Virus record (IMG/VR): IMGVR_UViG_3300036835_000152
Origin: a virus
Strand: one strand, 5' to 3'
DNA length: 20,849 nucleotides
The notes below the pieces were generated by a model. The model was given only the letters and a program-made list of their open reading frames with translations. It had not been told where the DNA came from and ran no database searches. Each line of letters opens with the position of its first letter. Positions within the stretch are counted from its first letter, which is position 1. This document shows positions 1 to 20,849 of the stretch, in pieces. The translations under genes were made by a program, and so were the position numbers.

Positions 1-99
1 GTTCGCCAGCGTCCACCCGGCGCCGTCGCCGGACCGCTTGGACAGCCGGGCGTAGGACGCCACCGGCCTGAGGTCGGTGGCGGTGGTCGTGATGGTCAT
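1..99 (-). CDS. int: Large serine integrase, 5' end only (first 33 codons). Same sequence as 20723..20821.
   Basis: ATG at 99..97 is preceded by a GGAAGGA RBS (complement of 105-111). The frame runs off the window start and is identical to the start of ORF 19406..20821. Confidence 0.9.
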   Translation of the reverse strand, partial: MTITTTATDLRPVASYARLSKRSGDGAGWTLAN

Positions 100-127
100 G
101 CGGATCCTTCCACGGTGGCCCCGCGGT
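1..127. repeat. Terminal overlap: bases 1-127 are identical to 20723-20849 (circular closure or assembly overlap)
   Basis: Direct comparison of the two ends: gttcgccagcgtccacccgg...ccacggtggccccgcggt occurs at both termini. Unique length is 20722 bp. Confidence 0.97.
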
Positions 128-7580: not shown

Positions 7581-8813
7581 CTACTTGCTGGCGGACTTGG
7601 CCGACGCGCTAGCCGCGGAGGTGTCGCCGCCGAGGCCCGAGATCGGGGTGAACAGGTCCGGCTTGGTGTTCAGGAACGCGCCGTACCCGGCGTAGCCGAC
7701 CAGTTGCCCGAGCACGTTGGGCTCGTCCACGTACAGGAACCCGTCCACGTCCTCATACCACTCCAGATAGGACGAGACACCGACGATCGCGGTCCCGGCG
7801 GTCAGCCACGGATCCACCACCAGGCGCAGGCCCAGCGGGTTGCCCGCGGTGGCGGTGGGGGTGACCGACGGGAACGCGGGCACGCCGTTGTCGTTGGTCA
7901 TGGAACCGAGCGCGCCCCACACGTCGGGGGAGGCCCACATCGTGTCGGGCAGCGGGGCGCCGTCCGCGGTGCCCATGATCTGCGCGGCCGCCTCAAACAC
8001 GGCCGCCCGGACCCCGGCGCCGTCCGCGGTGGCCGCGGCCACCGGCGGGTTGGTGATCGATGCCAGGAACTGCGCTACCGCGTCCTCGTCGGTCGCCTTG
8101 GCGTACTCGTGCCCGAAATCTGCGAACAGAATCTGCATGATCGCGGGCTCAGACCACTTGATGTCTTGCCGCGACACGTTGAGGTGCCCGGCGTAGGTGG
8201 TCGCCGTCACCGGCAGTTTGCCGACCTTCAATTGCCGGGATGCGGTCTCGGCCTTCTCAGCCGGTTGCTTGTCCACCGCGACGTGTTGGGTGATCGTCGG
8301 CCGGTCAAACGATCCGGTGGGCAGCGTCCGGTTGGTGATCGACCGGATGAACGGCCGCTCGTTCCCCACCGCGGTGATCACCGGCCCGAGGATGGGCCGC
8401 GGGATCAGGCCCGGGTTGTCGGCGGTGGTCTGATGCGCGGTGGCCCGGGCGATGCGCTCCCCGGCGTCCTTGTCGCCCTTCATGGCCCGGATCACGGTGA
8501 CCGCGTAGTCCCCGGCGGTCGGGAACATGTCTTCCAGGCTCGGCGGGTCCTCCGGTGCGGCCCGCTCGGTCCGCGGCACGGTCCGCACCGAACGGCGCAA
8601 CTCGCGCACCCGGTCGGTCTGCTCGGCCAGGCCGGTGTAGTGCTCGATCGCGGTTTGGAGTTCCGCCAGCCGGGTCCGGTCCCGGTCAACCTGCTGTTGC
8701 TCGGCGTCGGTTACGTCGCGGTCCTCGTCGGCGGCCCGCTGTACCAGGGTCTCGATGCCCTCGGTGATCTCGTCGTACTGATCGTTCAGCCGGTCCAGGT
8801 AGGTGGTGGGCAT
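7581..8813 (-). CDS. Major capsid protein, HK97 fold with an N-terminal delta/scaffold-like coiled coil (410 aa)
   Basis: The first ~100 aa are a charged coiled coil. They are followed by an HK97-family core (PGLIPRPILGPV...FIRSIT...GSFDRP...YAGHLNVSRQDI...VDPWL...). Confidence 0.92.
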   Translation of the reverse strand: MPTTYLDRLNDQYDEITEGIETLVQRAADEDRDVTDAEQQQVDRDRTRLAELQTAIEHYTGLAEQTDRVRELRRSVRTVPRTERAAPEDPPSLEDMFPTAGDYAVTVIRAMKGDKDAGERIARATAHQTTADNPGLIPRPILGPVITAVGNERPFIRSITNRTLPTGSFDRPTITQHVAVDKQPAEKAETASRQLKVGKLPVTATTYAGHLNVSRQDIKWSEPAIMQILFADFGHEYAKATDEDAVAQFLASITNPPVAAATADGAGVRAAVFEAAAQIMGTADGAPLPDTMWASPDVWGALGSMTNDNGVPAFPSVTPTATAGNPLGLRLVVDPWLTAGTAIVGVSSYLEWYEDVDGFLYVDEPNVLGQLVGYAGYGAFLNTKPDLFTPISGLGGDTSAASASAKSASK

Positions 8814-9321: not shown

Positions 9322-10047
9322 CTAGGGCCTCAGTCGGAACCGGGCCAGTAGCGCCCGGTGGTCCGAGTGGGTGCGGATCGTCCAGGCCCGGTCCAGCCGG
9401 ATCCGCGGGTCCCGCTTCCACCACACGTAGTCAACCGCCCGGCGGCCGTGGGTGGGCAGCCAGCCGCGGGCCCGGTGGGTGTTGGTCCAGCCGCGGGCGT
9501 ACAGCGGCCCGAGGATCCCGGTGTGGTCGGGCTCGGTGTTGAAATCCCCGACGATGAATCTCAGCCCGTACCGGCCGTCCACAGCGGCCGCCAGCCGCCG
9601 GACGTGCCGCACCGCCACCGCATGCCGCCGGGGCCGGTAGGACGACGGCACCAGGTGGGTGTTGGCCACCACCCGGGAGCGCCACAGCATCCCGCCCATC
9701 GCGTATTTCGGTTTCGCGGTGCTCGGCCCGTTCCCGGGGCCCACGTAGGTCCGCGGCAGCAGCGGTTTCCCGAACGGGTGCCGCATGGCTACCGCCCGCG
9801 GGTTCCACACCAGCGGGGTGGCGGACTGGCCGCGCAGACCCCGCCCGGCCTGCACCCGCCACCCGGCGGCCTTGGCGGTGGCCACCAGGCCGGGCCGGTC
9901 GCCCCACTCCTGCGCGCCGATCACGTCGGCGCGGCGCATGATCTGGCGCAGGTCCTCCCGGGTGCCGTGCGCGCCGGGGTTCCAGGTGGCCAGCACCAGC
10001 ACCAGCGGGGCCAGGTGCCGGACTAGCGCCGGACCGACTCCAGCCAT
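9322..10047 (-). CDS. Endonuclease/exonuclease/phosphatase (EEP, DNase I-like) family enzyme (241 aa)
   Basis: Full EEP motif set in order: LVLATWN, VIGAQEW, ANTHL, GDFN, VDYVWW, SDHRAL. The start is taken at ATG 10047. The upstream part of the 404-aa ORF overlaps the protease in another frame. Confidence 0.85.
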   Translation of the reverse strand: MAGVGPALVRHLAPLVLVLATWNPGAHGTREDLRQIMRRADVIGAQEWGDRPGLVATAKAAGWRVQAGRGLRGQSATPLVWNPRAVAMRHPFGKPLLPRTYVGPGNGPSTAKPKYAMGGMLWRSRVVANTHLVPSSYRPRRHAVAVRHVRRLAAAVDGRYGLRFIVGDFNTEPDHTGILGPLYARGWTNTHRARGWLPTHGRRAVDYVWWKRDPRIRLDRAWTIRTHSDHRALLARFRLRP

Positions 10048-10595
10048 GCGGCCAGCGCCTCGCGCCGCGGCGTCGGTGACGGCGCCACGGTCAGGGTGTG
10101 CTCGCGGGCCACCAGCACCCCGGCCCCGGCGTACTGAGGTGCCGCGGTGGCCGCCACATGGGACAGCCCGCACTGTTCGCGCCACACCACCCGCTGCCCG
10201 TCGCCGCGCGGCACCGAGCGGGACCGGTACACCCGCGCGGACACGCTCCAGCCGGTCAACTCCCCGGCCCGGGCGGCCTCCGCCTGTGGATGCCCGCGGT
10301 CGATGCGGAACGTCGGATACAGGCCCTCGGCGGTCTCCTCCAGCGCGACACAGCGACCGAGGTACCGGTCCCCGTCGTCCCCGACGTGCCCGAGCATCAG
10401 GTTGACCCACCGGCCGCCCTTGGTGCAGTCCCGGGCGAACGCGCCGGGGGTGAACGCCTCCAGGTAGGTCTCCCGGCCGTCGTCGGTCACCTCCTGCGGT
10501 CGACTGTACGGCACGGCCAGGCCGTAGACGGTCCACCCGTCGCCTTGCGGTTCCAGCGCCGGGGCCGCCCGTTCGATGATCAACTCATCCGGCAT
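10023..10595 (-). CDS. HK97-family prohead maturation protease (190 aa)
   Basis: YLEAFTPGAFAR...VNLMLGHV and a downstream S-containing core match the HK97 prohead protease pattern. Follows the portal gene with an 11-nt overlap. Confidence 0.9.
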   Translation of the reverse strand: MPDELIIERAAPALEPQGDGWTVYGLAVPYSRPQEVTDDGRETYLEAFTPGAFARDCTKGGRWVNLMLGHVGDDGDRYLGRCVALEETAEGLYPTFRIDRGHPQAEAARAGELTGWSVSARVYRSRSVPRGDGQRVVWREQCGLSHVAATAAPQYAGAGVLVAREHTLTVAPSPTPRREALAAWLESVRR

Positions 10596-11832
10596 CGGCG
10601 GTCACCTCCTCCGGGGTCAACTCGGGCACCCCGGCCGGGGTGCCGCCCTCCTCCTGCGTGGTGTCCATCGGCGGCCGCCCGATCGTGGCCCGGGCCTCGT
10701 CCACGTCCAGGATCCCGGCGTCCACGTAGGTTTTCAGCACCTCCGAGGTGGTTTTCTGATCGGCCCGCATCCGGCCCGCGTAGTCCCACGCCACGGTGGT
10801 CCCGGCGGGCATCAGCCACTTGGAGAACGCGGCCACGATCGGCGCCGCGTACCGGTCCACCGAGTCCCGGACGAACTCGATATCGGCGGTCTCGATGTTC
10901 TGATACGTCATGCTCGGCCCGGCCAAACCGAGTTTGTACGACGGGATCCCCAGCATCATCGCCACCGCCGCGGCGTTCCACTGCCGCGACTCCACCAACT
11001 GCGCCTGCTCGGCGTTGGACACCACCGGGGTCAGCACGTAGCCCGCGGGCAACACCACCGGCTCGCGGGTGGAGGTCATTTCCCGCCACTTGGATTTCAA
11101 CTCGTCGGCCTGCGCCTGCGTCAGCGTGACCGGACTGGACAGCACCGCCGGGGGCAGCGCGCCGCCCGCGAAATACTGCCCGGCGTGTTCCTCGGCGGCC
11201 ACCGAGCCGCCCAGCCATTCGGCGTACTGGCGCAGCACCCCGCGGCCCAGCACCTCCCCGGACCGGTTGCCCGCAGTGACATGCAGCATGTCGGCCCGGT
11301 CGATCACCTCACCGGCGATCGTCCAGGCGTACCAGCCGGGGTTGGCCGGGTCGGTGATGATCCACACCTCATCGGCGGGCAGCGGCACCAGGTAGCGCGG
11401 CCAGAATCCGAACGCCGTGTCCGGCTCGCCGTACAGCGCGAAATGGTTCCCGTACAGGATTAGGTCCTCCGCGAGACCCCACCGGTAGGCCCACACGGTG
11501 GTCTCGTCGCCGGTGGTGTTGGTGAGGATCGCCGGTTGGTCCGGCCGCCGCACCGACACCCCGAGATCGGCGTCCCAGCGCATCGCCCGCCATTCGGTGC
11601 CCGCGATCGCGTTGCACAGCAGCGCCACCCCGCGGCCGAACGGCGGCAGGCCCAGCGCCTCCTGCTCGGTCGCCGGGTATGGGCCGTCCGGGTACGGGTC
11701 GCCGGTCAGGAACGCCCACGATCCGGGCGGGGACAGCCCGGCGGGGCCGGTGGCCCGCGGCGGCCGGACCAGGCCGCGGCGCCGGGTGCCGGTGGCGGGC
11801 CGGGAGGTGAGGGCTCGGGGTCGGGGTGGCAT
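10585..11832 (-). CDS. Portal protein, HK97 family (415 aa)
   Basis: Typical motifs: LILYGNHFAL, EHAGQYFAGGALPPAVL, LKSKWRE, REPVVLPAG, QLVESRQWNAAAVAMMLGIP. Confidence 0.93.
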   Translation of the reverse strand: MPPRPRALTSRPATGTRRRGLVRPPRATGPAGLSPPGSWAFLTGDPYPDGPYPATEQEALGLPPFGRGVALLCNAIAGTEWRAMRWDADLGVSVRRPDQPAILTNTTGDETTVWAYRWGLAEDLILYGNHFALYGEPDTAFGFWPRYLVPLPADEVWIITDPANPGWYAWTIAGEVIDRADMLHVTAGNRSGEVLGRGVLRQYAEWLGGSVAAEEHAGQYFAGGALPPAVLSSPVTLTQAQADELKSKWREMTSTREPVVLPAGYVLTPVVSNAEQAQLVESRQWNAAAVAMMLGIPSYKLGLAGPSMTYQNIETADIEFVRDSVDRYAAPIVAAFSKWLMPAGTTVAWDYAGRMRADQKTTSEVLKTYVDAGILDVDEARATIGRPPMDTTQEEGGTPAGVPELTPEEVTADAG

Positions 11833-12424: not shown

Positions 12425-14473
12425 TCAGAACACGTAGAACGGCTGTGGCGCCTCGGTCTCCGCCGCCACCACCGCCACCGCCCAGGCGGTCGCCTTCACC
12501 GCGTCACAGCGCACCCCCCGGTGCGCCGGGGCCAGGCCCCCGTCCGCGTGCGCCGCCCAGCGGGTGCCACACACCTGCCCGGCCACGTCCTCGTCGGGTG
12601 AGTGCACCAACCGCCCCGACCGGACCAGCGACCTCAGCAGCGCCAGGCCCCGGCGGGCCCGGTCCGGCGCCTGCACCACCACCTCGGGCCCCAGGTACCC
12701 GGCGGCCTCCGACGCCGACAGCGACGGTCCCAGCACCACCACCGGGCCGATCTCGCGGCGGCCGTCGCCACGCATCGACGCGCCCGCCCAGGAGAACGCA
12801 TCCGCCCGCGACCCGAACGCCGCCCCCCAGGTCAGGATCCGCCCATCCGGGAGCACGGTGGCGGCCGCCGCCGACGCGCCCCTCCCGTACCAGTCCTCCA
12901 CCGCCACCGCCACCGGACGGCCCTCCGACGGCGCCGCATACAGGTCCGCCGCCTGCGCCCACTCCTCCCGGGACACCAGCACCTCGGGGGTGGAGGTGGA
13001 CGGCACCCACCGGCGCACCGGCCACACGTTCAGGTACTGCGCCCGGAACGCCTCCACCGGGTCGTCCTCGTCCGGGTCCTCCGACGCGCCCGCCCGGGCC
13101 CGGCGCAGCCGCGCCTCCAGCAGCCGCTCCCGGGTCGGCGTCCAATGCGGGGATGCCTGCCGCCAGCCGATCCGGTCCGCCAGGTCCGCGTCCCGCGGCG
13201 CCGACCACTCCAGCAGCAGCGACGACGACGGCGAGGAATACCCGGCCAGCAGCGCCGCCCGGCGCACCGGCACCAGCGCGGTGGCCCGCCGGTGCGCCGT
13301 CGAGAACATCACCAACTGCGCGTTCGCATGCTCGGCCAGCGTCGGCTCCAGGCCGTCCTCCACCACCCCCGGCGCCACCTTCCACACCTCGTCGGCCAGC
13401 GCCAGCGTCGCCGAATACGAGTACACCGAGCCGTGCCCGCGCAGCAGCCACCGAGACCCGTCCGGGTGCCCGATCTCCTCCTCGCCGTTGGACTCCCGCA
13501 CCGGGTAGCCCTGCTGCCGCGCCCACAGCCGCGCCGGACGGGTCACCTCCCGGGTCACCTGCCGGTCCTTCGCGGTGTGCAGGATCAGTTGCTCCTCCCC
13601 GAACACCTCCGAGGCGTGCAGCCGCCACAGCGCCAACTGGCGCAGGAACACCGACTTCCCCACCTGCCGGGCCGTGGACACCAGCGCATCCATCCACACC
13701 AGTTGGCCCTCCGCGTCATGCTCCAGCAGCCGGGCGAACGCCAGCCGCTGCCACCAGCGCAGACCCCACCCCCGCTCCAGACACCACGCCACCGCCGCCG
13801 CCCCATGCGACCCCGCCGCATCCGGGTGCGGCAGCGACATCAGCCGCGGCCACGTCGCACTAGGCGGCACCTCCCGCAAATCATCGAGCCACGGCGACGA
13901 ATCCCAGACCGAATCCTCAGGACCCGGCGTAATCACCGGCGGCTCGATATCGGTCGGCTCGAATTGGTCTATGGGGGAGGAATTGTCAGCCGGAGCGCCC
14001 TGGGAAGTCGAGGCCGCCGTCAAAAACCGGGCGCCGTTCTGCGCATTGTCGTCCACGATTTCGCCGCGTTGGTTGTCCCATTTCCCGGCTAGTGCTGCCT
14101 TGCCTGCGGCGTAGATCGCTTGGCTCAGTTCGCGTCCGGCTTTGCGGTTGCAGTGCGCATGGGCTGGCCGTATGTCGGGGGACCGGCCGCCGAGTGCGAC
14201 GGGTTCGCCCACGTGGTCTAGGTCCCAGGGTTCCCAGGGTTGTACGGGGTCGGGGCAGCGGGGGCATGGCTGGGGCAGGCGTTGCTGCCAGCGGTTGCGG
14301 AGTTCGGCCCATTCTCGGCCGTTGATGGGTCGGCCTGCGATGACTCCGGATCCCATGGTTGCCGATGATGCTCCGGTTTGGCGGGCCTGTCGATTCTCAC
14401 AACCCATTATCCGATTCGACCGTGTAGTGCGTCGTCGCGCGCGAACGGTGACGGAACAGACCGCATCGACCAC
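12425..14473 (-). CDS. HNH endonuclease domain fused in frame to the terminase large subunit (up to 682 aa)
   Basis: N-terminal CPRC...WDLDHVGEPVALGG...AHAHCNRKAG (HNH, about 14135-14266). Then a Walker A STARQVGKS (about 13652-13672) and a terminase ATPase/nuclease body. No stop codon separates the two parts. The start is uncertain (GTG 14473, ATG 14407 or ATG 14356). Confidence 0.85.
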   Translation of the reverse strand: MVDAVCSVTVRARRRTTRSNRIMGCENRQARQTGASSATMGSGVIAGRPINGREWAELRNRWQQRLPQPCPRCPDPVQPWEPWDLDHVGEPVALGGRSPDIRPAHAHCNRKAGRELSQAIYAAGKAALAGKWDNQRGEIVDDNAQNGARFLTAASTSQGAPADNSSPIDQFEPTDIEPPVITPGPEDSVWDSSPWLDDLREVPPSATWPRLMSLPHPDAAGSHGAAAVAWCLERGWGLRWWQRLAFARLLEHDAEGQLVWMDALVSTARQVGKSVFLRQLALWRLHASEVFGEEQLILHTAKDRQVTREVTRPARLWARQQGYPVRESNGEEEIGHPDGSRWLLRGHGSVYSYSATLALADEVWKVAPGVVEDGLEPTLAEHANAQLVMFSTAHRRATALVPVRRAALLAGYSSPSSSLLLEWSAPRDADLADRIGWRQASPHWTPTRERLLEARLRRARAGASEDPDEDDPVEAFRAQYLNVWPVRRWVPSTSTPEVLVSREEWAQAADLYAAPSEGRPVAVAVEDWYGRGASAAAATVLPDGRILTWGAAFGSRADAFSWAGASMRGDGRREIGPVVVLGPSLSASEAAGYLGPEVVVQAPDRARRGLALLRSLVRSGRLVHSPDEDVAGQVCGTRWAAHADGGLAPAHRGVRCDAVKATAWAVAVVAAETEAPQPFYVF

Positions 14474-14517: not shown

Positions 14518-14606
14518 GGGCCACATCCGTGTGGCCCTGAGGGCCACATCCGTGTGGCCCAGGGTCCACAGATTTGTGGCCCTGTAGGGCCACATCCGTG
14601 TGGCCC
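14518..14606. repeat. Array of four tandem 20-21 bp palindromes, GGGCCACA-TCCG-TGTGGCCC
   Basis: Perfect copies at 14518-14537, 14541-14560 and 14587-14606. One variant (GGGTCCACAGATTTGTGGCCC) at 14562-14582. Spacing is 21-25 bp. Confidence 0.95.
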
Positions 14607-14929
14607 TATCCCGGGCCTCGGACCAGCGGGAACGTGAACCGGTACACCGCCCGGTGGCCACCTCCGCCGGGGCCAATCTGCTCGATCACCTTGGCGTCCA
14701 CCAGTCCGTTGATCGCCCGACGTACGGCTTCCTTGGCGGTCGGGGTGTACTCGGGATATCCGAGCCATAGGGCCAGGTTCTCCCACCCGCCGTAGTAGAT
14801 CCCGGCCTCGGCCCGCTCGGTGTCCCGGTCCAGCGCCATGTCCGCCATGGCCCAGGCAACGATGCGCTCGGGGTGGGTCAGTTTGGGCCCGATCAGCGTG
14901 ACCAGGCGGAACATTTGGCGCCCCATCAT
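14606..14929 (-). CDS. Small winged-helix DNA-binding protein (107 aa). Candidate small terminase, or origin- or operator-binding protein.
   Basis: ATGA overlap with the upstream stop. WENLALWLGYPEYTPTAKEAVRRAINGLVDAKVIEQIGPGGGGHRAVYRF fits an HTH plus beta-hairpin wing. Its stop codon abuts the palindrome array. Confidence 0.65.
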   Translation of the reverse strand: MMGRQMFRLVTLIGPKLTHPERIVAWAMADMALDRDTERAEAGIYYGGWENLALWLGYPEYTPTAKEAVRRAINGLVDAKVIEQIGPGGGGHRAVYRFTFPLVRGPG

Positions 14930-16691: not shown

Positions 16692-17485
16692 GCCGACACC
16701 TCGCCCTCGGACCAGTCGGGCAGCGGGGCGCCTACCGAGTCCCGGGCTTCCTTGGTGACCCATTCCGCGACAGCGGCACAGTGCAGGAACCGGCCGTAGG
16801 CGGCCTCGGAGGCGTTGACGGGCACCAACTGCACCCCATCGGGCCGGACCCACACGACGGCGGCCTCATCGGTGGGCGGCATCAGCAGCACCCGGCCGCC
16901 GATCTGGATGTGGGAGGCGTGCCGGTAGGCGGCCAACTGGAGTGAGTCGGTGTCCCGGACCCCGGACGCGGCTGTCTTGTAGTCCAGCAGCCAGCGGCGC
17001 CCGTCGCCCATGTCCGCGATCAGGTCGAGCCGACCGGCCCACCAGTGTGTTTGGTGGAACACGATCGCCTCGTGTACGACGGGCTCGACCCCGCGCGCGT
17101 CCAGGAACCGGGCCAGGTGCCCGGCCATGTCCAGCACCTCGGGCGGCAGCGGGGTGCCGTCGTCGTCGCGGTCCCCGACCGGCTCGCCGTACACCAGCCG
17201 CTCGGCCACGGTGTGCAGTTGCCTGCCGAGATCGCCACCCGCGTCCCGTACCCGGTCCGGCGCCTTGGCCGCGGTCTCGATCCACACCTGTTCCCCGAGG
17301 CTGGCCAGGCCCTCGGCGTTGGTGGCGCACCATTGTGCGGCGGTGCGGGCCGCCCAGGCGATCAGGAACGGCTTCCCGATCGCCTTGTTGAGAATCGTGG
17401 TCACCCCGGGGCAGTAGCGCCCGTCCAGTGAGTAGGTGTGGCGGCGCTCGTTGAACACCACCCGCTCAGTTGTCTGCTCGATCAT
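16688..17485 (-). CDS. PD-(D/E)XK exonuclease (RecE/RecB-like partner of RecT, 265 aa)
   Basis: HTYSLDGRYCPGVTTIL N-terminal motif, GRLDLI...LLDYKT (D...D/E-x-K) and QLAAY (QxxxY). Confidence 0.8.
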   Translation of the reverse strand: MIEQTTERVVFNERRHTYSLDGRYCPGVTTILNKAIGKPFLIAWAARTAAQWCATNAEGLASLGEQVWIETAAKAPDRVRDAGGDLGRQLHTVAERLVYGEPVGDRDDDGTPLPPEVLDMAGHLARFLDARGVEPVVHEAIVFHQTHWWAGRLDLIADMGDGRRWLLDYKTAASGVRDTDSLQLAAYRHASHIQIGGRVLLMPPTDEAAVVWVRPDGVQLVPVNASEAAYGRFLHCAAVAEWVTKEARDSVGAPLPDWSEGEVSA

Positions 17486-17798
17486 CGGTCTGTGCCTCCA
17501 CCCCGTCGTCGGGGCTGTCGTCGGGCACGGCCAGACCGAGAGGCAGCGGATCCCCGGCGGGGATCACGTCGGGCCCACGCTCGGCCTGCCGTAGAACATC
17601 GTTGATCTGCTCGGCGGACATGCGAACCATGCCGCCGATCAGGTAGTGCGGCCACTGGCCGCCGTGGATGGTGCGCTGCCGTACGTACTTCTCGGAGACG
17701 TGCAGCAGTGCCGCGATCTCGGGCACCCGGAACAGTCGGAGCGTTCCCGTCCGCTCACCGCTCCCGGGGTCGAAAACCGGGTAGTCGTCAGGGGCCAT
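17466..17798 (-). CDS. MerR/excisionase-family HTH protein (110 aa), first gene of the long minus-strand operon (Cro- or Xis-like)
   Basis: ATG 17798 with a GGGGAGG RBS. LFRVPEIAALLHVSEKYVRQRTIHGGQWPHYLIGGMVRM matches the HTH_17/excisionase pattern. Confidence 0.75.
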   Translation of the reverse strand: MAPDDYPVFDPGSGERTGTLRLFRVPEIAALLHVSEKYVRQRTIHGGQWPHYLIGGMVRMSAEQINDVLRQAERGPDVIPAGDPLPLGLAVPDDSPDDGVEAQTDDRADN

Positions 17799-18030
17799 GG
17801 TGCCGCCTCCCCGAGACACTGGCCGAACACCACCAGTACCGCTCGGCCGCGGTGCCCGCAATCGCCCGGAACGGGGGTGGCGGGCTGGCCCTCGGTGCGC
17901 TAGCCGCTCGGCGGCCGCCGCGGGCCGGGTGTGGCCCGGCGCCGTGTTTCGCTCCCGTAGCGCGAACCTGTCGCGTTAAGGTGCCGCGTGTCGGCGCCCA
18001 ACCGGGGCGCCCACTCGGGGAGGAAACACG
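17799..18030. promoter_or_regulatory. Divergent intergenic control region (putative lysis-lysogeny switch)
   Basis: 232-bp gap between divergently oriented genes. Contains a hairpin CGGGCC-N6-GGCCCG (17921-17938), GGCGCC-N7-GGCGCC (17993-18011) and a TAAGGT -10-like hexamer (17977-17982). No promoter could be assigned with confidence. Confidence 0.45.
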
Positions 18031-18402
18031 ATGCCAACCAAAGCCTCTAGGACGGCGCCAGTGCCGGATGAGGATGCGCCCAAGGTGAGCGCCGAGACGT
18101 TCGCCGCGGGCCTGTCGCCCAAGGTCCTGCACTGTCGGGAACTCGGCCACAACTGGCGGCCTCACGTCGCCAGGTGGGAAGCGGACTCCCGGACGTTCTA
18201 CCGGGAACTCCGCTGTTCCAACTGCCGGACGATCCGGCGTCAGGTTCTCGACAGCCACGGCCACCCGCGCAGCAACTCCTACGCCTACCCGGACGGGTAT
18301 CAGGCTAAGAACGTCGAGCGGGGCACCTACAGCCGCGACGTGTTCCGGCTCGAAGCGTTGATGCGCGAGGTCTCGGCGCCCGGCCTGAGGCGGGTGGTCT
18401 AG
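18031..18402 (+). CDS. Hypothetical zinc-ribbon-like protein (123 aa), first gene of the plus-strand pair
   Basis: GGGGAGGAAA RBS 5 nt upstream of the ATG. HCRELGHNW ... CSNC motif. High GC3. Confidence 0.65.
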   Translation: MPTKASRTAPVPDEDAPKVSAETFAAGLSPKVLHCRELGHNWRPHVARWEADSRTFYRELRCSNCRTIRRQVLDSHGHPRSNSYAYPDGYQAKNVERGTYSRDVFRLEALMREVSAPGLRRVV

Positions 18403-18404
18403 AC

Positions 18405-18926
18405 ATGGCAACCGAGATCGTCCGGTGGTGCGACCGGCACCTAGCGACCAAGGATGAGCGGGTGCCGGGTGAGTCGTGGTCATTCCAGATCACCAGCCCG
18501 TCCGGCGGCAACGTGACGGCCAGCGTGGACGCCTGCCCGGACTGCGCGGCGCCCTACGCCGAGTTGGTCGAGTACCTGCGCGAGCACGGCACCCCGGGCG
18601 GCCCGATGGACACCGGCCCGGTGGCCCGGGCGTCGAGCGTGCGCCGGTCCCCGAGACCGGCGACGGTGGGCACCGACACCAGCCCGCCGATCGGGAAGGC
18701 CGCCTACGGCAAACCGGCGCCGCCGTGCCCGGTGTGCGGGTTCCAGTCGTCGTCCAAGGCGGCGTTGCAGGGTCACCTGCGCGAGCACCACAACACCGAC
18801 TGGTTCCGGGCGTTCGGCTTGACCCCGCCGCTCACCTGCGACCTGTGCGGGTGGGGCTGTGCCACCGGCACCGGTCTGGCCGCGCACCTCCGGATCACTC
18901 ATCCCGATCACGCCTCGGGCGGATAG
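18405..18926 (+). CDS. Protein with two classical C2H2 zinc fingers and an Lsr2-N-like N-terminus (173 aa). Candidate repressor or silencer.
   Basis: CPVCGFQSSSKAALQGHLREH (C-X2-C-X12-H-X3-H) and CDLCGWGCATGTGLAAHLRITH (C-X2-C-X12-H-X4-H). The start is 2 nt after the upstream stop. Confidence 0.75.
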   Translation: MATEIVRWCDRHLATKDERVPGESWSFQITSPSGGNVTASVDACPDCAAPYAELVEYLREHGTPGGPMDTGPVARASSVRRSPRPATVGTDTSPPIGKAAYGKPAPPCPVCGFQSSSKAALQGHLREHHNTDWFRAFGLTPPLTCDLCGWGCATGTGLAAHLRITHPDHASGG

Positions 18927-19068
18927 CCCGCGGGTGCAGTAACCGGCGCAGGCCCTCCAGCCGGTCCGGGTCCAGCGGTGGGGCGTGCTCGGCGCGTTTG
19001 GCCCCGGCCTCGCGGAGTCGGGCCAGGCGGGCCGCCTTGCGGCCCTCGGGGCGTTCCTTGGGTTCCAT
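18895..19068 (-). CDS. Possible small basic ORF (57 aa from ATG 19068). Doubtful.
   Basis: High GC3 over most of its length (MEPKERPEGRKAARLARLREAGAKR...). However, there is no clear RBS, it overlaps the convergent plus-strand gene by 32 nt, and it lies downstream of the integrase terminator. Confidence 0.25.
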   Translation of the reverse strand: MEPKERPEGRKAARLARLREAGAKRAEHAPPLDPDRLEGLRRLLHPRAIRPRRDRDE

Positions 19069-19316
19069 AGCCCGGTACGGTGCGGCGGAGCGTCGGGGGC
19101 CGTCCAACGGGCGCGACACGCCCGGCCGAACCGGTCGGTTCCTGCCAGATTCGGGGAAGGTTGGCAGGTTTACCGGCGTGTCGCGTGGCCGCCAGGTCAG
19201 GTGTCGTCAGGTGCGGGCCGCGTGTCGGCCGCGCCGCGCCGCCCGGGTCCGCTCAGGATTTCCGGGGATTCTCAGAATGTGAGACCGCCCGCGGGGGGTG
19301 GGCGGAGCACAGAAAA

Positions 19317-19350
19317 GGCCCTCCCCGACCGGTCAGGGTTGGGGAGGGCC
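19317..19350 (-). terminator. Rho-independent-type terminator downstream of the integrase
   Basis: Perfect 10-bp stem GGCCCTCCCC / GGGGAGGGCC with a 14-nt loop, followed on the minus strand by TTTTCT (complement of 19311-19316). Lies 56 nt after the integrase stop. A second hairpin CCGCCC-N9-GGGCGG is at 19285-19305. Confidence 0.65.
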
Positions 19351-19405: not shown

Positions 19406-20821
19406 CTACCGGCGCCACTCGATGATCAGGTCCCGGTCCCCGTCGAACGGGGTGTGCCGGGTCGGCGCGCCGCGCAGCGCCACCCGGGCACACAGGTGGT
19501 CGATCACCGCCCGCTTGCGGGCCAGCGTCAGGCCCGCCCACGCGGCCGCGGCACCGGCGCCGGTGAGGTCGGCCAGCACCTCCACCGGCTTGGCCACCTG
19601 CTCGCGGGCCTCCGCGATCCGGGCCTCCAGCGCCGCCAACTCGTCGCGGTACACCGCGGCGGTCATGTCGTACTCGGCCTCGGACACCTCCCCGCGGGCC
19701 TTGCGGGCCACCTCAGCGGCCCAGCGGGCGCCCATCGCGGTGTGGGCGGCCTCCAGGTCCGCCAGGCCTTCAGCGGCGCTGTCGTCCACCAGCGCCCCGG
19801 CCGCGTCGGCCCGCTCCAGCCGCCCGACGATCACGCCCTCCAGGTAGGCATCCACCTCATCGGTCTGCCGGTAGCAGTGACGGCCGGTGGCGCAGGCGTA
19901 GGCCCGGGACTCGGGGGCGTTCTTGGGGCCGGGGCGCCCGCGCAGCACCTCCCCGCACTCGGCGCAGGTGGCCAGGCCCGCGGCCAGGTAGCGCCGGGCG
20001 TTGGTGTACGACGTGCGCCGGGCCGGGTCGGTCAGGATGAACTGCACCCGCTCCCAGGTGGTCCGGTCCAGCACCGGCGGCCAGTCGGCGGCACCGAGGA
20101 TCTGGCCGCGGTGCACGCGCAGGCCCGCCAGGTGCGGGCGTTTCATCATGGTGCCCAGGTTGGGGCCCGCCCAGCGGGCGCCCTCGGGGGTCGCCACCTC
20201 CCGGGTGTTGAGGTCGCGGGCGATGCTGGCCAGGGTCTCGCCGCCGATGATCCGCTCGGCCACCTCCCGCACGATCGCGGCCTCGGATGCGCGGATCTCG
20301 GTCATGCCCGGCTCATACCCGAACCGGCGCCGTCCGCCGTGGAACTTCCCATGCTCGGCCAACTGTCGGTGCCGCCTTCCTGCGCGTCGGGACTTCTGAT
20401 CGGACTCGGCCGCGGCCAGCGCGGACTGGATCCGGAGCATGGTCACGTCGGTGACCTGTTGGGCGCCGGTCCACAACTCGGTGCCGGTGTGCTTGCACGC
20501 GGACCACAGCCGCTCCAGTTGGATGGGCTGGCGGGTGAACCGGTCGGCGTGCCACGCGATCACCGCCCGGTACTGGCCGGACGCGATATCGGCCAGCAGC
20601 CGCTCGAAATCGGGCCGGGTGACCGACTCGTCCCAGGCCGAACGGTTGTCGCCGTAGTAGACGATCTCGGCGCCCGGGTGGGCGCCCGCCATGGTGGCGG
20701 TGTTGTCCTCATGCTGGCGCTCGTTCGCCAGCGTCCACCCGGCGCCGTCGCCGGACCGCTTGGACAGCCGGGCGTAGGACGCCACCGGCCTGAGGTCGGT
20801 GGCGGTGGTCGTGATGGTCAT
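19406..20821 (-). CDS. int: Large serine recombinase (integrase, 471 aa)
   Basis: N-terminal resolvase catalytic motif ASYARLS plus RSAWDE...FERLL. Recombinase domain, then zinc ribbon CAECGEVL...YACATGRHC, then a long C-terminal coiled coil. Confidence 0.95.
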   Translation of the reverse strand: MTITTTATDLRPVASYARLSKRSGDGAGWTLANERQHEDNTATMAGAHPGAEIVYYGDNRSAWDESVTRPDFERLLADIASGQYRAVIAWHADRFTRQPIQLERLWSACKHTGTELWTGAQQVTDVTMLRIQSALAAAESDQKSRRAGRRHRQLAEHGKFHGGRRRFGYEPGMTEIRASEAAIVREVAERIIGGETLASIARDLNTREVATPEGARWAGPNLGTMMKRPHLAGLRVHRGQILGAADWPPVLDRTTWERVQFILTDPARRTSYTNARRYLAAGLATCAECGEVLRGRPGPKNAPESRAYACATGRHCYRQTDEVDAYLEGVIVGRLERADAAGALVDDSAAEGLADLEAAHTAMGARWAAEVARKARGEVSEAEYDMTAAVYRDELAALEARIAEAREQVAKPVEVLADLTGAGAAAAWAGLTLARKRAVIDHLCARVALRGAPTRHTPFDGDRDLIIEWRR

Positions 20822-20849
20822 GCGGATCCTTCCACGGTGGCCCCGCGGT
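20723..20849. repeat. Second copy of the 127-bp terminal overlap (identical to 1-127)
   Basis: Exact identity with the window start. Confidence 0.97.

What the first reader, a model, noticed from the sequence alone, without database searches (positions are those of the whole stretch)
17799..18926. Repressor position occupied by two zinc proteins, one with tandem eukaryote-style C2H2 fingers on an Lsr2-N-like domain
The only plus-strand genes diverge from the Cro/Xis-like HTH gene across a 232-bp gap. That is the classic place for a prophage repressor, yet neither protein has an HTH.

The 173-aa protein ends with two fingers that match C-X2-C-X12-H-X3/4-H exactly (nt 18726-18791 and 18837-18902). 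Its first ~60 residues align by eye with the N-terminal oligomerisation domain of the actinobacterial nucleoid silencer Lsr2 (ESWSF / ETVEF; VTASVDACPDCAAPYAELVEYLREHG / VTYEIDLSTKNATKLRGDLKQWVAAG). The usual Lsr2 AT-hook-like DNA-binding half appears to be replaced by the fingers. The upstream 123-aa gene has an HC...GH...CSNC zinc-ribbon signature.

This could be a non-canonical immunity repressor or silencer. It could also be a two-gene cassette expressed in the lysogen with another role, such as exclusion or defence.
Basis: partly seen in the sequence, partly recalled or inferred. Interest (0 to 1): 0.75.

Follow-up and report, generated by a model that had tools for sequence, protein, structure and literature searches.

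The report
Zinc-finger/Lsr2-type gene pair in phage switch
A small uncultured temperate phage of high-GC bacteria carries, where a repressor gene normally sits, a conserved two-gene operon for a zinc-ribbon protein and for a protein that joins an Lsr2-type pairing domain to two classical C2H2 zinc fingers; no paper in the library searched describes this design, and it is a good candidate for a new kind of lysogeny regulator.

Summary
The window is a complete circular phage genome of 20,722 bp. Its only plus-strand genes are orf123 (18031-18402) and orf173 (18405-18926). They diverge from an HTH_17/excisionase-like gene across 232 bp.

**orf173:**
- It has two classical C2H2 fingers that score above Pfam's cut-offs. 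All eight ligands are conserved in 85 homologues.
- Its first ~62 residues are a remote homologue of the Lsr2 dimerisation domain (hhalign 95% probability, P 2e-8, clean controls). Lsr2 is also the structure with the highest TM-score.
- This domain carries an extra, conserved four-ligand metal site that Lsr2 lacks.

**orf123:** it belongs to an uncharacterised zinc-ribbon-like family (invariant C35, H40, C62, C65).

**Context:**
- The two genes form a translationally coupled pair in all 24 complete related loci of the first set and in 44 of 45 further metagenome loci. The pair always lies beside the integrase, whether that is a serine or a tyrosine enzyme.
- A motif, cGACACGCCg, is enriched about 9-fold on both flanks of the pair. 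This was replicated in an independent set of loci.

**What is not shown:** function is inferred, not demonstrated. The best reading is an oligomerising, zinc-dependent lysogeny regulator or repressor. However, about a fifth to a quarter of relatives also carry an ordinary XRE repressor gene just upstream, so the pair need not be the immunity repressor. It is a new domain architecture, so far seen only in metagenomes.

The parts
17466..17798 (-). First gene of the long minus-strand operon: a 110-aa HTH_17/excisionase-like protein, the Cro/Xis-like partner in the divergent arrangement.
   Evidence: Pfam HTH_17 E 3e-4 (below the cut-off). PHROG 1840 'excisionase' E 9.5e-7. TIGR01764 E 0.002. Relatives keep a homologue in the same place.
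17799..18030 (.). 232-bp divergent intergenic region. It presumably holds both promoters. It contains one copy of the conserved motif (GCGTGTC at 17986-17992, within CCGCGTGTCGGC at 17984-17995).
   Evidence: Sequence. Motif hits. No sigma-70 consensus promoter was found by the scan.
18031..18402 (+). orf123: a 123-aa protein of an uncharacterised zinc-ribbon-like family (phrog_4480). Residues C35, H40, C62 and C65 are invariant, as are W42, Y84, Y86, Y90 and R106.
   Evidence: PHROG 4480 E 8.7e-12. 105 homologues. Alignment A3. No Pfam, NCBIfam, PADLOC or PDB sequence match. GC3 0.86.
18405..18590 (+). orf173 residues 1-62: an Lsr2-type dimerisation domain (beta-beta-beta-alpha) with an added putative zinc site formed by C9, H12, C44 and C47.
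   Evidence: hhalign against 10 Lsr2 N-domains: probability 95.3%, P 2.2e-8; controls P 0.44 and 0.49. 11 of 82 relatives hit PF11774 below its cut-off. AlphaFold pLDDT 94. Foldseek: Lsr2 structure 4E1P_B has the highest TM-score (0.58/0.66) and probability 0.91. Ligand columns: C 85/85; H 74 and C 11; C 85/85; C 61, D 13 and H 11.
18591..18719 (+). orf173 residues 63-105: a low-confidence, probably disordered linker, rich in Ala, Pro, Arg and Gly and net positive across the family.
   Evidence: pLDDT 53-59. Across the family the linker has a median length of 28 aa and a median net charge of +3.
18726..18791 (+). orf173 finger 1: C108-X2-C111-X12-H124-X4-H129.
   Evidence: Pfam zf-C2H2_4 matches residues 107-129 at 34.1 bits. 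Ligands are invariant in 85 homologues. R126, in the H-x-R-x-x-H position, is R in 67 and K in 7. pLDDT 94-95.
18837..18902 (+). orf173 finger 2: C145-X2-C148-X12-H161-X4-H166. The family consensus is CPxCGxxFxxxQGLxxHxRxxH.
   Evidence: Second zf-C2H2 stretch. Ligands are invariant or 83/85. Q156 is present in 56, G157 in 71 and L158 in 62 of 85. Foldseek on the full model matches ZBTB7A, CTCF and Zif268 DNA complexes with probability 0.9-0.99 but E >= 0.01.
18895..19119 (-). Unannotated, conserved small ORF. It is 57 aa from the ATG at 19069, or 74 aa from the GTG at 19119. It converges on orf173 and overlaps its last 32 nt. The conserved motif is APPLxxEQxxxLRRLLxPR. It is a candidate recombination directionality factor.
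   Evidence: jackhmmer finds it in the same place in 18 of 19 serine-integrase loci and in 0 of 5 tyrosine-integrase loci. No Pfam match. The function is inference only.
19112..19228 (.). Cluster of three further motif copies downstream of the pair. An 11-nt perfect inverted repeat, CGCGACACGCC (19112-19122) / GGCGTGTCGCG (19175-19185), encloses a second inverted repeat. The 12-mer CCGCGTGTCGGC at 19217-19228 is identical to the copy at 17984-17995.
   Evidence: The equivalent position in relatives holds palindromes of the form GACACGCCG-N6-8-CGGCGTGTC.
19317..19350 (-). Terminator-like hairpin for the integrase gene, followed on the minus strand by UUUUCU.
   Evidence: Inverted repeat I5. RNA fold -33 kcal/mol, z -2.8. 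The consensus scan tool did not call it.
19406..20821 (-). Large serine integrase (471 aa). It converges on the pair and marks the lysogeny module.
   Evidence: Pfam Resolvase E 6e-14 and Recombinase E 3e-12. PHROG 95 'integrase' E 9e-68.

Best explanation
orf173 is a zinc-dependent, self-associating DNA-binding regulator of the phage's lysogeny switch. It is made together with an obligate zinc-ribbon partner, orf123, from one translationally coupled operon.

Proposed mechanism:
1. The N-terminal Lsr2-type domain, stiffened by its own Cys/His metal site, pairs or oligomerises the protein.
2. A flexible basic linker tethers two classical C2H2 fingers, which read short sequence-specific sites.
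3. The best candidate sites are the cGACACGCCg motifs. They lie on both flanks of the operon: in the divergent promoter region, and upstream of the small convergent ORF next to the integrase.
4. Binding at these sites, and possibly bridging between them as Lsr2, H-NS and lambda CI do, holds the early lytic operon and the excision factor off in the lysogen.

Shown here: the domain architecture, ligand conservation, operon coupling, conserved position in the lysogeny module, and enrichment of the motif.

Inferred: zinc binding, oligomerisation, DNA binding, which protein reads the motif, repression, and any role of orf123.
For: **Architecture**
- The fingers score above Pfam's cut-offs. All ligands are conserved in 85 homologues.
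- The Arg in H-x-R-x-x-H, which in classical fingers contacts the DNA backbone, is conserved (the role of this residue is established knowledge of C2H2 fingers).
- The finger models resemble DNA-bound finger arrays.
- The N-domain is homologous to the Lsr2 dimerisation domain.

**Operon**
- orf173-like genes follow orf123-like genes with a 0-4 nt gap or an overlap in 24 of 24 complete loci.
- The same holds in 44 of 45 further metagenome loci.

**Position**
- The pair is always divergent from the early operon and beside the integrase.
- This holds when a tyrosine integrase on the other side replaces the serine integrase.
- These are the only genes on that strand.
- No other HTH or repressor candidate was found in the 20.7-kb genome.

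**Motif**
- 4 of the 7 genome copies of GACACGC lie in the two non-coding regions that flank the pair. Those regions make up 3.4% of the genome.
- In 24 loci the downstream region has 1.67 copies per kb against 0.33 per kb elsewhere (p 7e-9).
- In 32 independent non-redundant loci the upstream region has 2.5 and the downstream region 2.7 copies per kb, against 0.29 per kb (p 2e-12 and 6e-16).
- Palindromic pairs of the motif occur in some loci.
Against: - There are no expression, binding or immunity data. The phage is known only from metagenomes.
- An XRE-type gene, the usual kind of repressor, sits directly upstream of the pair in 6 of 24 and 10 of 53 related loci. It is separated from the pair by a hairpin and a promoter-like TTGAC. 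In those phages the pair is probably not the sole repressor.
- The motif is mostly absent from the five tyrosine-integrase relatives, although they keep the pair.
- The motif's mostly fixed orientation towards the downstream gene would also fit a promoter element.
- The window has only one motif copy in the divergent region. It lies 45 nt from the orf123 start but about 190 nt from the start of the early gene.
- The inter-finger linker is 15 residues, not the canonical 7. The DNA-binding mode cannot simply be copied from Zif268-type arrays.
- No Foldseek E-value is significant (all >= 0.01).
- The window protein itself does not hit PF11774.
- Distant orf123 relatives occur without a finger partner in the early regions of large phages.
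Confidence: 0.5

Rival explanations
1. The pair is an accessory lysogeny-module operon and not the repressor. It would be expressed from the prophage alongside the true repressor and do another job. Candidates are control of integration or excision (for example of the small convergent ORF and the integrase), a CII-like establishment function, superinfection exclusion, or defence. This would be comparable to rexAB sitting next to cI in phage lambda.
For: An XRE gene sits directly upstream on the same strand in 6 of 24 and 10 of 53 relatives, and the pair appears to have its own promoter after a hairpin. The downstream motif cluster lies just upstream of a small ORF that co-occurs with the serine integrase in 18 of 19 loci against 0 of 5 tyrosine-integrase loci. 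The pair stays with the integrase whatever its type.
Against: Most relatives, and this genome, have no XRE gene or other recognisable repressor. The pair is the universal component and XRE is the sporadic one. No PADLOC defence model matches. The architecture, an oligomerisation domain plus DNA-binding fingers, is that of a regulator and not an effector.
Confidence: 0.25
2. orf173 acts through the host's own Lsr2. Its Lsr2-type N-domain would co-assemble with host Lsr2. This could recruit the host silencer to sites chosen by the fingers, making orf173 a targeting adaptor. Or it could poison Lsr2 filaments, making it a counter-silencer, in the way truncated H-NS-like proteins antagonise H-NS.
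For: The N-domain is homologous to the Lsr2 dimerisation domain over its whole length, including the conserved MAxKIV N-terminal strand. From the literature, Lsr2-type genes are common in temperate actinophages (PMC8612146), and a paper title in the search reports that Lsr2 is required for productive mycobacteriophage infection (PMC10066036; title only, not read).
Against: Identity to Lsr2 is only about 16%. The domain has gained a metal site and a helix insertion at the strand that forms the Lsr2 dimer interface. That favours a private homo-oligomer. The host is unknown. No interaction test was possible.
Confidence: 0.1
3. The pair is a toxin-antitoxin-like or addiction module. orf123 would be a small zinc-binding effector. 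orf173 would be its DNA-binding, autoregulating neutraliser. This would resemble MqsR/MqsA, where the antitoxin has an N-terminal zinc domain and a C-terminal DNA-binding domain.
For: The operon has two tightly coupled genes and overlapping stop and start codons are common. A motif copy lies close to the operon's own start, as expected for autoregulation. Distant orf123 relatives occur without the partner in lytic-looking phages.
Against: No PADLOC, Pfam or NCBIfam toxin or antitoxin model matches. Foldseek did not return MqsA among the 50 matches listed for the N-domain. The strict placement in the lysogeny switch, between the early operon and the integrase, is not typical of addiction modules.
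Confidence: 0.07

Closest known systems
Lsr2 (actinobacterial xenogeneic silencer; PDB 4E1P N-domain, 2KNG C-domain), including phage-encoded Lsr2-like proteins such as CgpS
   Same: The N-terminal domain is homologous: beta-beta-beta-alpha, hhalign 95%, and the highest TM-score among PDB matches. The overall plan is the same: an oligomerisation domain, then a flexible basic linker, then a small DNA-binding module. Both occur in temperate actinophages.
   Different: The Lsr2 C-terminal AT-hook-like DNA-binding domain is absent and two C2H2 fingers take its place. The N-domain has a conserved C-x2-H/C...C-x2-C/H/D metal site and a short helix insertion that Lsr2 lacks. Binding is probably to a GC-rich specific motif and not to AT-rich DNA. 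The gene has an obligate zinc-ribbon partner gene.
Ros/MucR zinc-finger silencers of alpha-proteobacteria
   Same: Both are prokaryotic proteins that combine an N-terminal oligomerisation domain with a C-terminal Cys2His2 zinc module. MucR has been proposed as an H-NS-like silencer (PMC7710501, PMC9779718, PMC8857273).
   Different: Ros/MucR has one atypical finger (C-X2-C-X9-H-X3/4-H, from my own knowledge) inside a larger globular domain. There is no ROS_MUCR hit here, the spacing is the classical X12, and there are two fingers. The oligomerisation domain is Lsr2-type. This is an analogy, not homology.
Classical eukaryotic C2H2 finger arrays (Zif268, CTCF, ZBTB7A)
   Same: The ligand spacing matches. 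Pfam zf-C2H2 and zf-C2H2_4 score above their cut-offs. The Leu of the hydrophobic core and the Arg in H-x-R-x-x-H are conserved. The predicted beta-beta-alpha fold matches DNA-bound arrays.
   Different: There are only two fingers. They are joined by a 15-residue linker with a short helix, not by TGEKP. In this copy the core Phe of finger 2 is Cys. The context is bacteriophage. Foldseek E-values are not significant.
CI/Cro-type phage repressors (XRE HTH)
   Same: The genomic position and orientation match: divergent from the early lytic operon and next to the integrase. A repeated motif lies in the flanking control regions. An oligomerisation domain is attached to a DNA-binding domain.
   Different: There is no helix-turn-helix. 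The operon has two genes. Some relatives carry a true XRE gene in addition.

Membership tests
Classical C2H2 zinc finger (Pfam PF00096 / PF13894) | Ligand pattern C-X2-4-C-X12-H-X3-5-H | tested here: met
   C108-X2-C111-X12-H124-X4-H129 and C145-X2-C148-X12-H161-X4-H166. Conserved in 85 homologues.
Classical C2H2 zinc finger (Pfam PF00096 / PF13894) | Score at or above the curated Pfam cut-off | tested here: met
   zf-C2H2_4 scores 34.1 against 27. zf-C2H2 scores 29.2 against 25.2. 80-82 of 85 relatives match at E <= 1.
Classical C2H2 zinc finger (Pfam PF00096 / PF13894) | Beta-beta-alpha fold | tested here: met
   In the AlphaFold model the fingers have pLDDT 94-95, with helices at 118-129 and 155-165. 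Foldseek matches finger-DNA complexes with probability 0.9-0.99, but E >= 0.01. This is a prediction, not a solved structure.
Classical C2H2 zinc finger (Pfam PF00096 / PF13894) | Canonical 7-residue TGEKP-type linker between tandem fingers | tested here: not met
   15 residues lie between H129 and C145 (NTDWFRAFGLTPPLT). The family has a conserved L-x-E-x-x-G linker with a short helix.
Classical C2H2 zinc finger (Pfam PF00096 / PF13894) | Zinc binding and nucleic-acid binding | not testable with these tools
   Needs metal analysis and EMSA.
Lsr2 (xenogeneic silencer) | N-terminal dimerisation domain (PF11774) | tested here: met
   Remote homology only. hhalign of the family profile against 10 Lsr2 N-domains gives probability 95.3% and P 2.2e-8 over 57 columns; controls give P 0.44 and 0.49. 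11 of 82 relatives hit PF11774, best E 4.8e-5, all below the 29.6-bit cut-off. The window protein alone gives no hit. Foldseek: 4E1P_B has TM 0.58/0.66 and probability 0.91, but E 0.5.
Lsr2 (xenogeneic silencer) | C-terminal Lsr2 DNA-binding domain (AT-hook-like) | tested here: not met
   The only Pfam matches to residues 100-173 are zinc-finger or zinc-ribbon type models; the OrsD match begins at residue 77. The protein is therefore not a member of the Lsr2 family in the strict sense.
Lsr2 (xenogeneic silencer) | Oligomerisation and bridging of AT-rich DNA | not testable with these tools
   The genome is 65-77% GC throughout with no AT-rich island near the pair. That argues against an AT-rich target but is not a test.
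Ros/MucR | ROS_MUCR domain with a single C-X2-C-X9-H-X3/4-H finger | tested here: not met
   ROS_MUCR is not among the Pfam hits at E <= 1. It is not among the 25 families most often matched by the 85 relatives. The spacing is X12 and there are two fingers.
CI/Cro-type (XRE) phage repressor | Helix-turn-helix DNA-binding domain | tested here: not met
   Neither protein has an HTH hit in Pfam, NCBIfam or PHROGs.
CI/Cro-type (XRE) phage repressor | Gene divergent from the early lytic operon within the integration/immunity module | tested here: met
CI/Cro-type (XRE) phage repressor | Repeated operator sites at the regulated promoters | tested here: inconclusive
   The cGACACGCCg motif is enriched on both flanks. 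Which protein binds it is unknown, and a promoter-element reading is not excluded.
CI/Cro-type (XRE) phage repressor | Confers superinfection immunity and maintains lysogeny | not testable with these tools
   The phage is uncultured.
Known anti-phage defence or toxin-antitoxin systems (PADLOC-DB) | Match to any defence-system protein model | tested here: not met
   0 families at E <= 1 for orf123, orf173 and the HTH_17 protein.

The most novel reading that the evidence does not exclude
This would be a lysogeny switch run without any helix-turn-helix protein. A phage repressor built from an Lsr2-type oligomerisation domain carrying its own zinc site, plus two classical C2H2 fingers, would work with an obligate zinc-ribbon partner. 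It would nucleate at cGACACGCCg sites on both sides of its own operon and bridge them, silencing the early lytic promoter and the promoter of the excision factor. I found no earlier description of a tandem classical C2H2 finger repressor in a bacteriophage. It would also be a natural 'retargeted Lsr2'.
Probability: 0.3. Interest if true: 0.85.

Novelty: new variant of a known kind. Interest (0 to 1): 0.7.

Why it matters
- **Rarity of the fingers.** From my own knowledge, classical tandem C2H2 fingers are a hallmark of eukaryotic transcription factors and are rare in bacteria and phages. Here they sit in a large and diverse family. About 100 of the 150 best matches in the full-library search are family members of similar length. 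All eight ligands are conserved, and the fingers are fused to the oligomerisation domain of the main actinobacterial gene silencer.
- **Modularity of silencers.** If the protein is the lysogeny regulator, nucleoid-silencer architecture (oligomeriser, linker, small DNA reader) would be modular enough for a phage to swap the DNA reader for sequence-specific fingers. That would be a natural counterpart of MucR in another phylum.
- **Testability.** The finding gives a compact system: two small proteins, a 9-10 bp candidate site and a 20.7-kb genome. It could be used to study how Lsr2-type domains assemble, and it could supply parts for programmable repression in high-GC bacteria.
- **Annotation.** orf123 (phrog_4480) and the small convergent ORF are conserved lysogeny-module genes that current annotation misses or leaves unnamed.

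Tried and rejected
- **Word-indexed homologue search with orf173.** It found only the query itself. The full HMMER scan was needed to find the family.
- **tblastn of orf173.** No match in 50,697 phage records or 72,556 plasmids. The family is absent from cultured phages at this sensitivity.
- **PDB sequence search with the N-domain profile.** It gave only a spurious match to the zinc knuckle of the HIV integrase N-terminal domain, E 0.06. Rejected as chance.
- **Foldseek of the N-domain against viral predicted structures.** Nothing informative.
- **Are orf123 and the orf173 N-domain homologous to each other?** Rejected: hhalign probability 0.9%.
- **Is the palindrome array at 14518-14607 the same operator as in the switch region?** Rejected. 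The GGCCACA-N4-TGTGGCC palindrome occurs only in that array. My first pattern had the wrong spacer.
- **Inverted repeat I1 in the divergent region.** It is only the two ribosome-binding sites facing each other.
- **Genome-collection scan.**
  - The scan gave a single decayed copy in an Actinomycetota MAG.
  - No intact integrated prophage was found.
  - attP/attB and the host therefore remain undefined.
- **Exact-DNA scan of metagenome contigs.** Nothing found.
- **Rfam and tRNA scans of the window.** Nothing found.
- **RbpA-like zinc ribbon idea for orf123.** This rested on my memory of the pattern only. RbpA is not among the Pfam families matched by the 53 relatives, so I dropped it.
Full report
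**1. What the window is**

The first 127 bases of the window repeat exactly at 20723-20849. The sequence is therefore a circularly closed or terminally redundant assembly of a 20,722-bp genome. It is about 70% GC.

It encodes the following phage functions:
- major capsid protein (7581-8813)
- portal protein (10585-11832)
- large terminase (12425-14212)
- CHAP-type lysin candidate
- Hjc-like resolvase
- RecT
- PD-(D/E)XK exonuclease
- HTH_17/excisionase-like protein
- large serine integrase

The same element was assembled in nine contigs from several samples. Its capsid is only about 30% identical to that of the nearest cultured phages, the Corndog-type mycobacteriophages. It is an uncultured temperate actinophage.

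Every called gene is on the minus strand except orf123 and orf173.

**2. The observation**

- Both ORFs show the codon-position GC signature of real genes, with GC3 of 0.86 and 0.92. Overlapping alternative frames do not.
- orf123 has a strong ribosome-binding site.
- orf173 starts 2 nt after the orf123 stop codon.

The two fingers lie at the stated nucleotides and score above Pfam's curated cut-offs. PDB sequence matches are all eukaryotic finger proteins.

**3. The orf173 family**

A word-indexed search found nothing but the query itself. A full HMMER scan of 1.84 billion representative proteins found 401 proteins at E <= 0.001. About 100 of the 150 best are proteins of 130-200 residues matched over the full length, interleaved with long multi-finger proteins that match only in the fingers.

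In an alignment of 85 members:
- C108, C111, H124, H129, C145, C148 and H161 are invariant.
- H166 is present in 83 of 85.
- The Arg in H-x-R-x-x-H is R or K in 74 of 85 for finger 1.
- Finger 2 has a conserved Q-G-L in its recognition helix.

AlphaFold gives pLDDT 94-95 for both fingers and 53-59 for the linker at residues 67-100. Foldseek on the full model returns DNA-bound finger arrays (ZBTB7A, CTCF, Zif268) with probability 0.9-0.99, though E >= 0.01.

The linker between the fingers is 15 residues, not the canonical 7. The fingers are classical individually but are not a canonical array.

**4. Is the N-domain Lsr2-like?**

- **Pfam.** There is no hit for the window protein itself. When the 82 N-domains were scanned separately, PF11774 (Lsr2 dimerisation domain) was by far the most frequent family. 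It matched 11 members, best E 4.8e-5, all below the cut-off.
- **Check of my template.** My recalled M. tuberculosis Lsr2 sequence was checked against PDB chains 4E1P and 4E1R. The printed alignments show residues 1-61 identical. C-domain entries, including 2KNG, match residues 65-112 strongly.
- **hhalign against one sequence.** The family profile against that single Lsr2 sequence gave a full-length collinear alignment with P 4.7e-4.
- **hhalign against an alignment.** I fetched phage-borne Lsr2 genes and aligned ten distinct N-domains, M. tuberculosis plus nine of these.
- **Controls.** The reversed Lsr2 alignment gave P 0.44. The orf123 family against Lsr2 gave P 0.49.
- **Structure.** The N-domain model has pLDDT 94 and the topology strand, short helix, two strands, long helix. 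In Foldseek against the PDB, the Lsr2 dimerisation domain 4E1P_B has the highest TM-score (0.58/0.66) and the highest probability (0.91) of all listed hits. Its E-value, 0.5, is not significant.

I conclude that the domain is a remote homologue of Lsr2-N. The profile comparison is the strong evidence and the fold comparison is consistent with it.

One feature is new. C9 and C44 are invariant. Position 12 is His in 74 and Cys in 11 members. Position 47 is Cys in 61, Asp in 13 and His in 11 members. Every variant is a metal ligand. Lsr2 has V/D and S/N at these places. A third, structural zinc site is therefore likely. This is inferred, not shown.

**5. orf123**

- 105 homologues were found, all but one from metagenomes.
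- C35, H40, C62 and C65 are invariant. So are W42, Y84, Y86, Y90 and R106, and the block RDVFRLEA is conserved.
- The only named family that matches is PHROG 4480, function unknown.
- There is no convincing Pfam, NCBIfam, PADLOC or PDB match, only scattered sub-threshold zinc-ribbon hits.
- It is not related to the orf173 N-domain.
- Distant relatives stand alone in the early regions of Nocardia phage P3.1 and Gordonia phage PokyPuppy. An HNH-type gene lies immediately downstream in P3.1 and one gene further on in PokyPuppy. Others stand alone in three viral contigs and in the Phaeacidiphilus oryzae chromosome.

**6. Conserved context**

Across 24 loci with both genes (this window, L009, L010, L013-L033), the orf173-like gene follows the orf123-like gene with a 0-4 nt gap or an overlap. 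In a further metagenome scan this held for 44 of 45 loci that had enough downstream sequence.

The usual gene order is RecT(-), Exo(-), HTH_17(-) | orf123(+), orf173(+) | serine integrase(-).

In five loci the serine integrase is missing. In the four that extend far enough upstream (L013, L016, L019, L028) a full-length tyrosine integrase lies on the other side, divergent from the pair. In L021 only its 5' end is on the contig. The pair therefore belongs to the integration/immunity module and not to one particular integrase.

All ten orf173 relatives that I looked up are single sequences from metagenome assemblies. None is found in cultured phages or plasmids.

**7. A complication: XRE genes in relatives**

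Six of the 24 loci, and 10 of the 53 metagenome loci (the two sets overlap), have an XRE (Cro/CI-type) HTH gene on the plus strand directly upstream of orf123. Between the XRE gene and orf123 lie a motif copy, a GC-rich hairpin and a TTGAC-type hexamer.

So the pair probably has its own promoter, and in those phages an ordinary repressor candidate coexists with it. This window and most relatives have no such gene, and no other HTH candidate.

**8. A conserved cis motif**

A k-mer screen of the 260 nt upstream of orf123 in 24 loci picked out GACACGC(C). It is present in 15 of 24 loci, against a maximum of 11 in shuffled sequences. The extended consensus is cGACACGCCg.

- **Window.** Overall the motif is not over-represented: 7 copies against 8 expected. 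But 4 of the 7 lie in the two non-coding regions that flank the pair. An identical 12-mer, CCGCGTGTCGGC, occurs at 17984-17995 and at 19217-19228.
- **First set of 24 loci.** Density is 2.9 per kb upstream, which is circular because the motif was chosen there. It is 1.67 per kb in the 500 nt downstream of orf173, an independent test with p 7e-9. Elsewhere it is 0.33 per kb.
- **Replication.** In 32 non-redundant loci not used for discovery, density was 2.5 per kb upstream and 2.7 per kb downstream, against 0.29 per kb (p 2e-12 and 6e-16).
- **Arrangement.** Downstream copies often form palindromes, as in L009 and L010 (GACACGCCG-N6-8-CGGCGTGTC). In the window they form an 11-nt perfect inverted repeat 52 nt apart.
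- **Exception.** The motif is largely missing from the tyrosine-integrase relatives.

This is a real regulatory element of the module. That orf173 reads it is my inference. The HTH_17 protein, or a sigma factor, could equally be responsible.

**9. An unannotated neighbour**

The downstream motif cluster lies just upstream of a small minus-strand ORF (18895-19069, or to 19119). This ORF overlaps the last 32 nt of orf173.

- Its peptide motif, APPLxxEQxxxLRRLLxPR, is conserved in the same position in 18 of 19 serine-integrase loci and in 0 of 5 tyrosine-integrase loci.
- It has no Pfam family.
- Its linkage to the serine integrase suggests a recombination directionality factor, a function that must stay off in a lysogen. 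This is inference only.
- A strong hairpin followed by a U-run at 19317-19350 on the minus strand looks like the terminator of the integrase gene.

**10. Synthesis**

Shown:
- A widespread, metagenome-only family joins a zinc-bearing Lsr2-type oligomerisation domain to two classical C2H2 fingers.
- It is encoded in a coupled operon with a zinc-ribbon-like protein.
- The operon sits at the repressor position of a lysogeny module.
- It is flanked on both sides by a conserved motif.

Inferred:
- The protein oligomerises.
- It binds that motif.
- It represses the early operon and the small ORF.

The XRE genes in some relatives, and the lone orf123 relatives, keep an accessory role open.

I found no description of this architecture in the literature library. 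I searched Lsr2 with C2H2 and phage, and C2H2 with actinobacteriophage. I also checked a survey of phage Lsr2 genes, which does not mention zinc.

The nearest functional analogue is MucR, which is non-homologous. The nearest homologue of the N-domain is Lsr2. I rate the finding a new variant of a known kind and of high interest, with the mechanism still to be tested.

Noticed in passing
window 14518-14607: Four tandem copies of a 21-bp palindrome, GGGCCACATCCGTGTGGCCCT, at 22-24 nt spacing. They lie in the 393-bp gap between the early (recombination) genes and the terminase gene. The palindrome occurs nowhere else in the genome (4 matches against 0.35 expected). It could be a packaging site, an origin, a late-promoter control site or a stack of hairpins. 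It is unrelated to the GACACGCC motif.
   Followed up: partly
window 18895-19119 (-): Unannotated, conserved small ORF (57-74 aa, motif APPLxxEQxxxLRRLLxPR). It converges on orf173 and overlaps its 3' end. It is present in 18 of 19 serine-integrase relatives and 0 of 5 tyrosine-integrase relatives, and has no Pfam family. It is a candidate recombination directionality factor. Convergent overlap with orf173 could give antisense interference.
   Followed up: partly
window 17986-17992, 19115-19121, 19176-19182, 19220-19226; same regions in L009-L033 and L054-L105: The motif cGACACGCCg is enriched about 9-fold on both flanks of the orf123-orf173 operon. This was replicated in 32 independent loci (p 2e-12 upstream, 6e-16 downstream). 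The motif is largely absent from the tyrosine-integrase relatives.
   Followed up: yes
L010 7674-8045; L014 1658-2083; L023 431-793; L027 4319-4864; L029 4523-4882; L030 4407-4847: An XRE (Cro/CI-type) HTH gene lies on the same strand directly upstream of the pair in a minority of relatives. It is followed by a motif copy, a GC hairpin and a TTGAC-type hexamer. It is absent from this window.
   Followed up: yes
window 1-127 and 20723-20849: Exact 127-bp terminal repeat. The window is a circularly closed assembly of a 20,722-bp genome, unusually small for a temperate tailed actinophage. The repeat falls inside the integrase gene.
   Followed up: yes
L013 3481-4608, L016 2368-3543, L019 3352-4440, L028 3514-4575: In some relatives the serine integrase downstream of the pair is replaced by a tyrosine integrase upstream of and divergent from the pair. 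The integrase module has been swapped around a fixed orf123-orf173 operon.
   Followed up: partly
window 19112-19185: A nested inverted repeat. The 11-nt perfect arms CGCGACACGCC / GGCGTGTCGCG enclose CCTGCCA...TGGCAGG. It lies between the small ORF and the integrase terminator. It could be an operator, or part of attP for the serine integrase. No integrated copy was found to decide between these.
   Followed up: partly
L103 1521-5149 (65-kb contig Ga0247818_10000045): A variant arrangement. The orf123-like and orf173-like genes are followed on the same strand by an ORF that matches the window's serine integrase only weakly (phmmer E 1e-14), and then by a second orf173-like gene.
   Followed up: no
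L011 420-1664; L007 10001-10393 (Phaeacidiphilus oryzae chromosome): Copies that look chromosomal. L011 has a diverged pair: a 145-aa orf123-like gene and a 267-aa protein with a CxxC...CxxC N-domain and degenerate fingers, sitting among metabolic genes. P. oryzae has a lone orf123-like gene.
   Followed up: partly
window 9322-10047 (-): A 241-aa protein with an Exo_endo_phos (endonuclease/exonuclease/phosphatase) Pfam hit on record is encoded between the capsid and portal genes. That is an odd place for such an enzyme. Possible counterparts in relatives lie next to the lysin; this was judged by eye from sequence and not tested.
   Followed up: no
L012 10046-10497 (MAG CAWBOK010000003.1, uncultured Actinomycetota): The only hit in the 185,579-species genome collection. 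It is a decayed copy of the pair (70-aa and 73-aa fragments) next to a fragment of a tyrosine integrase, probably a prophage remnant.
   Followed up: partly
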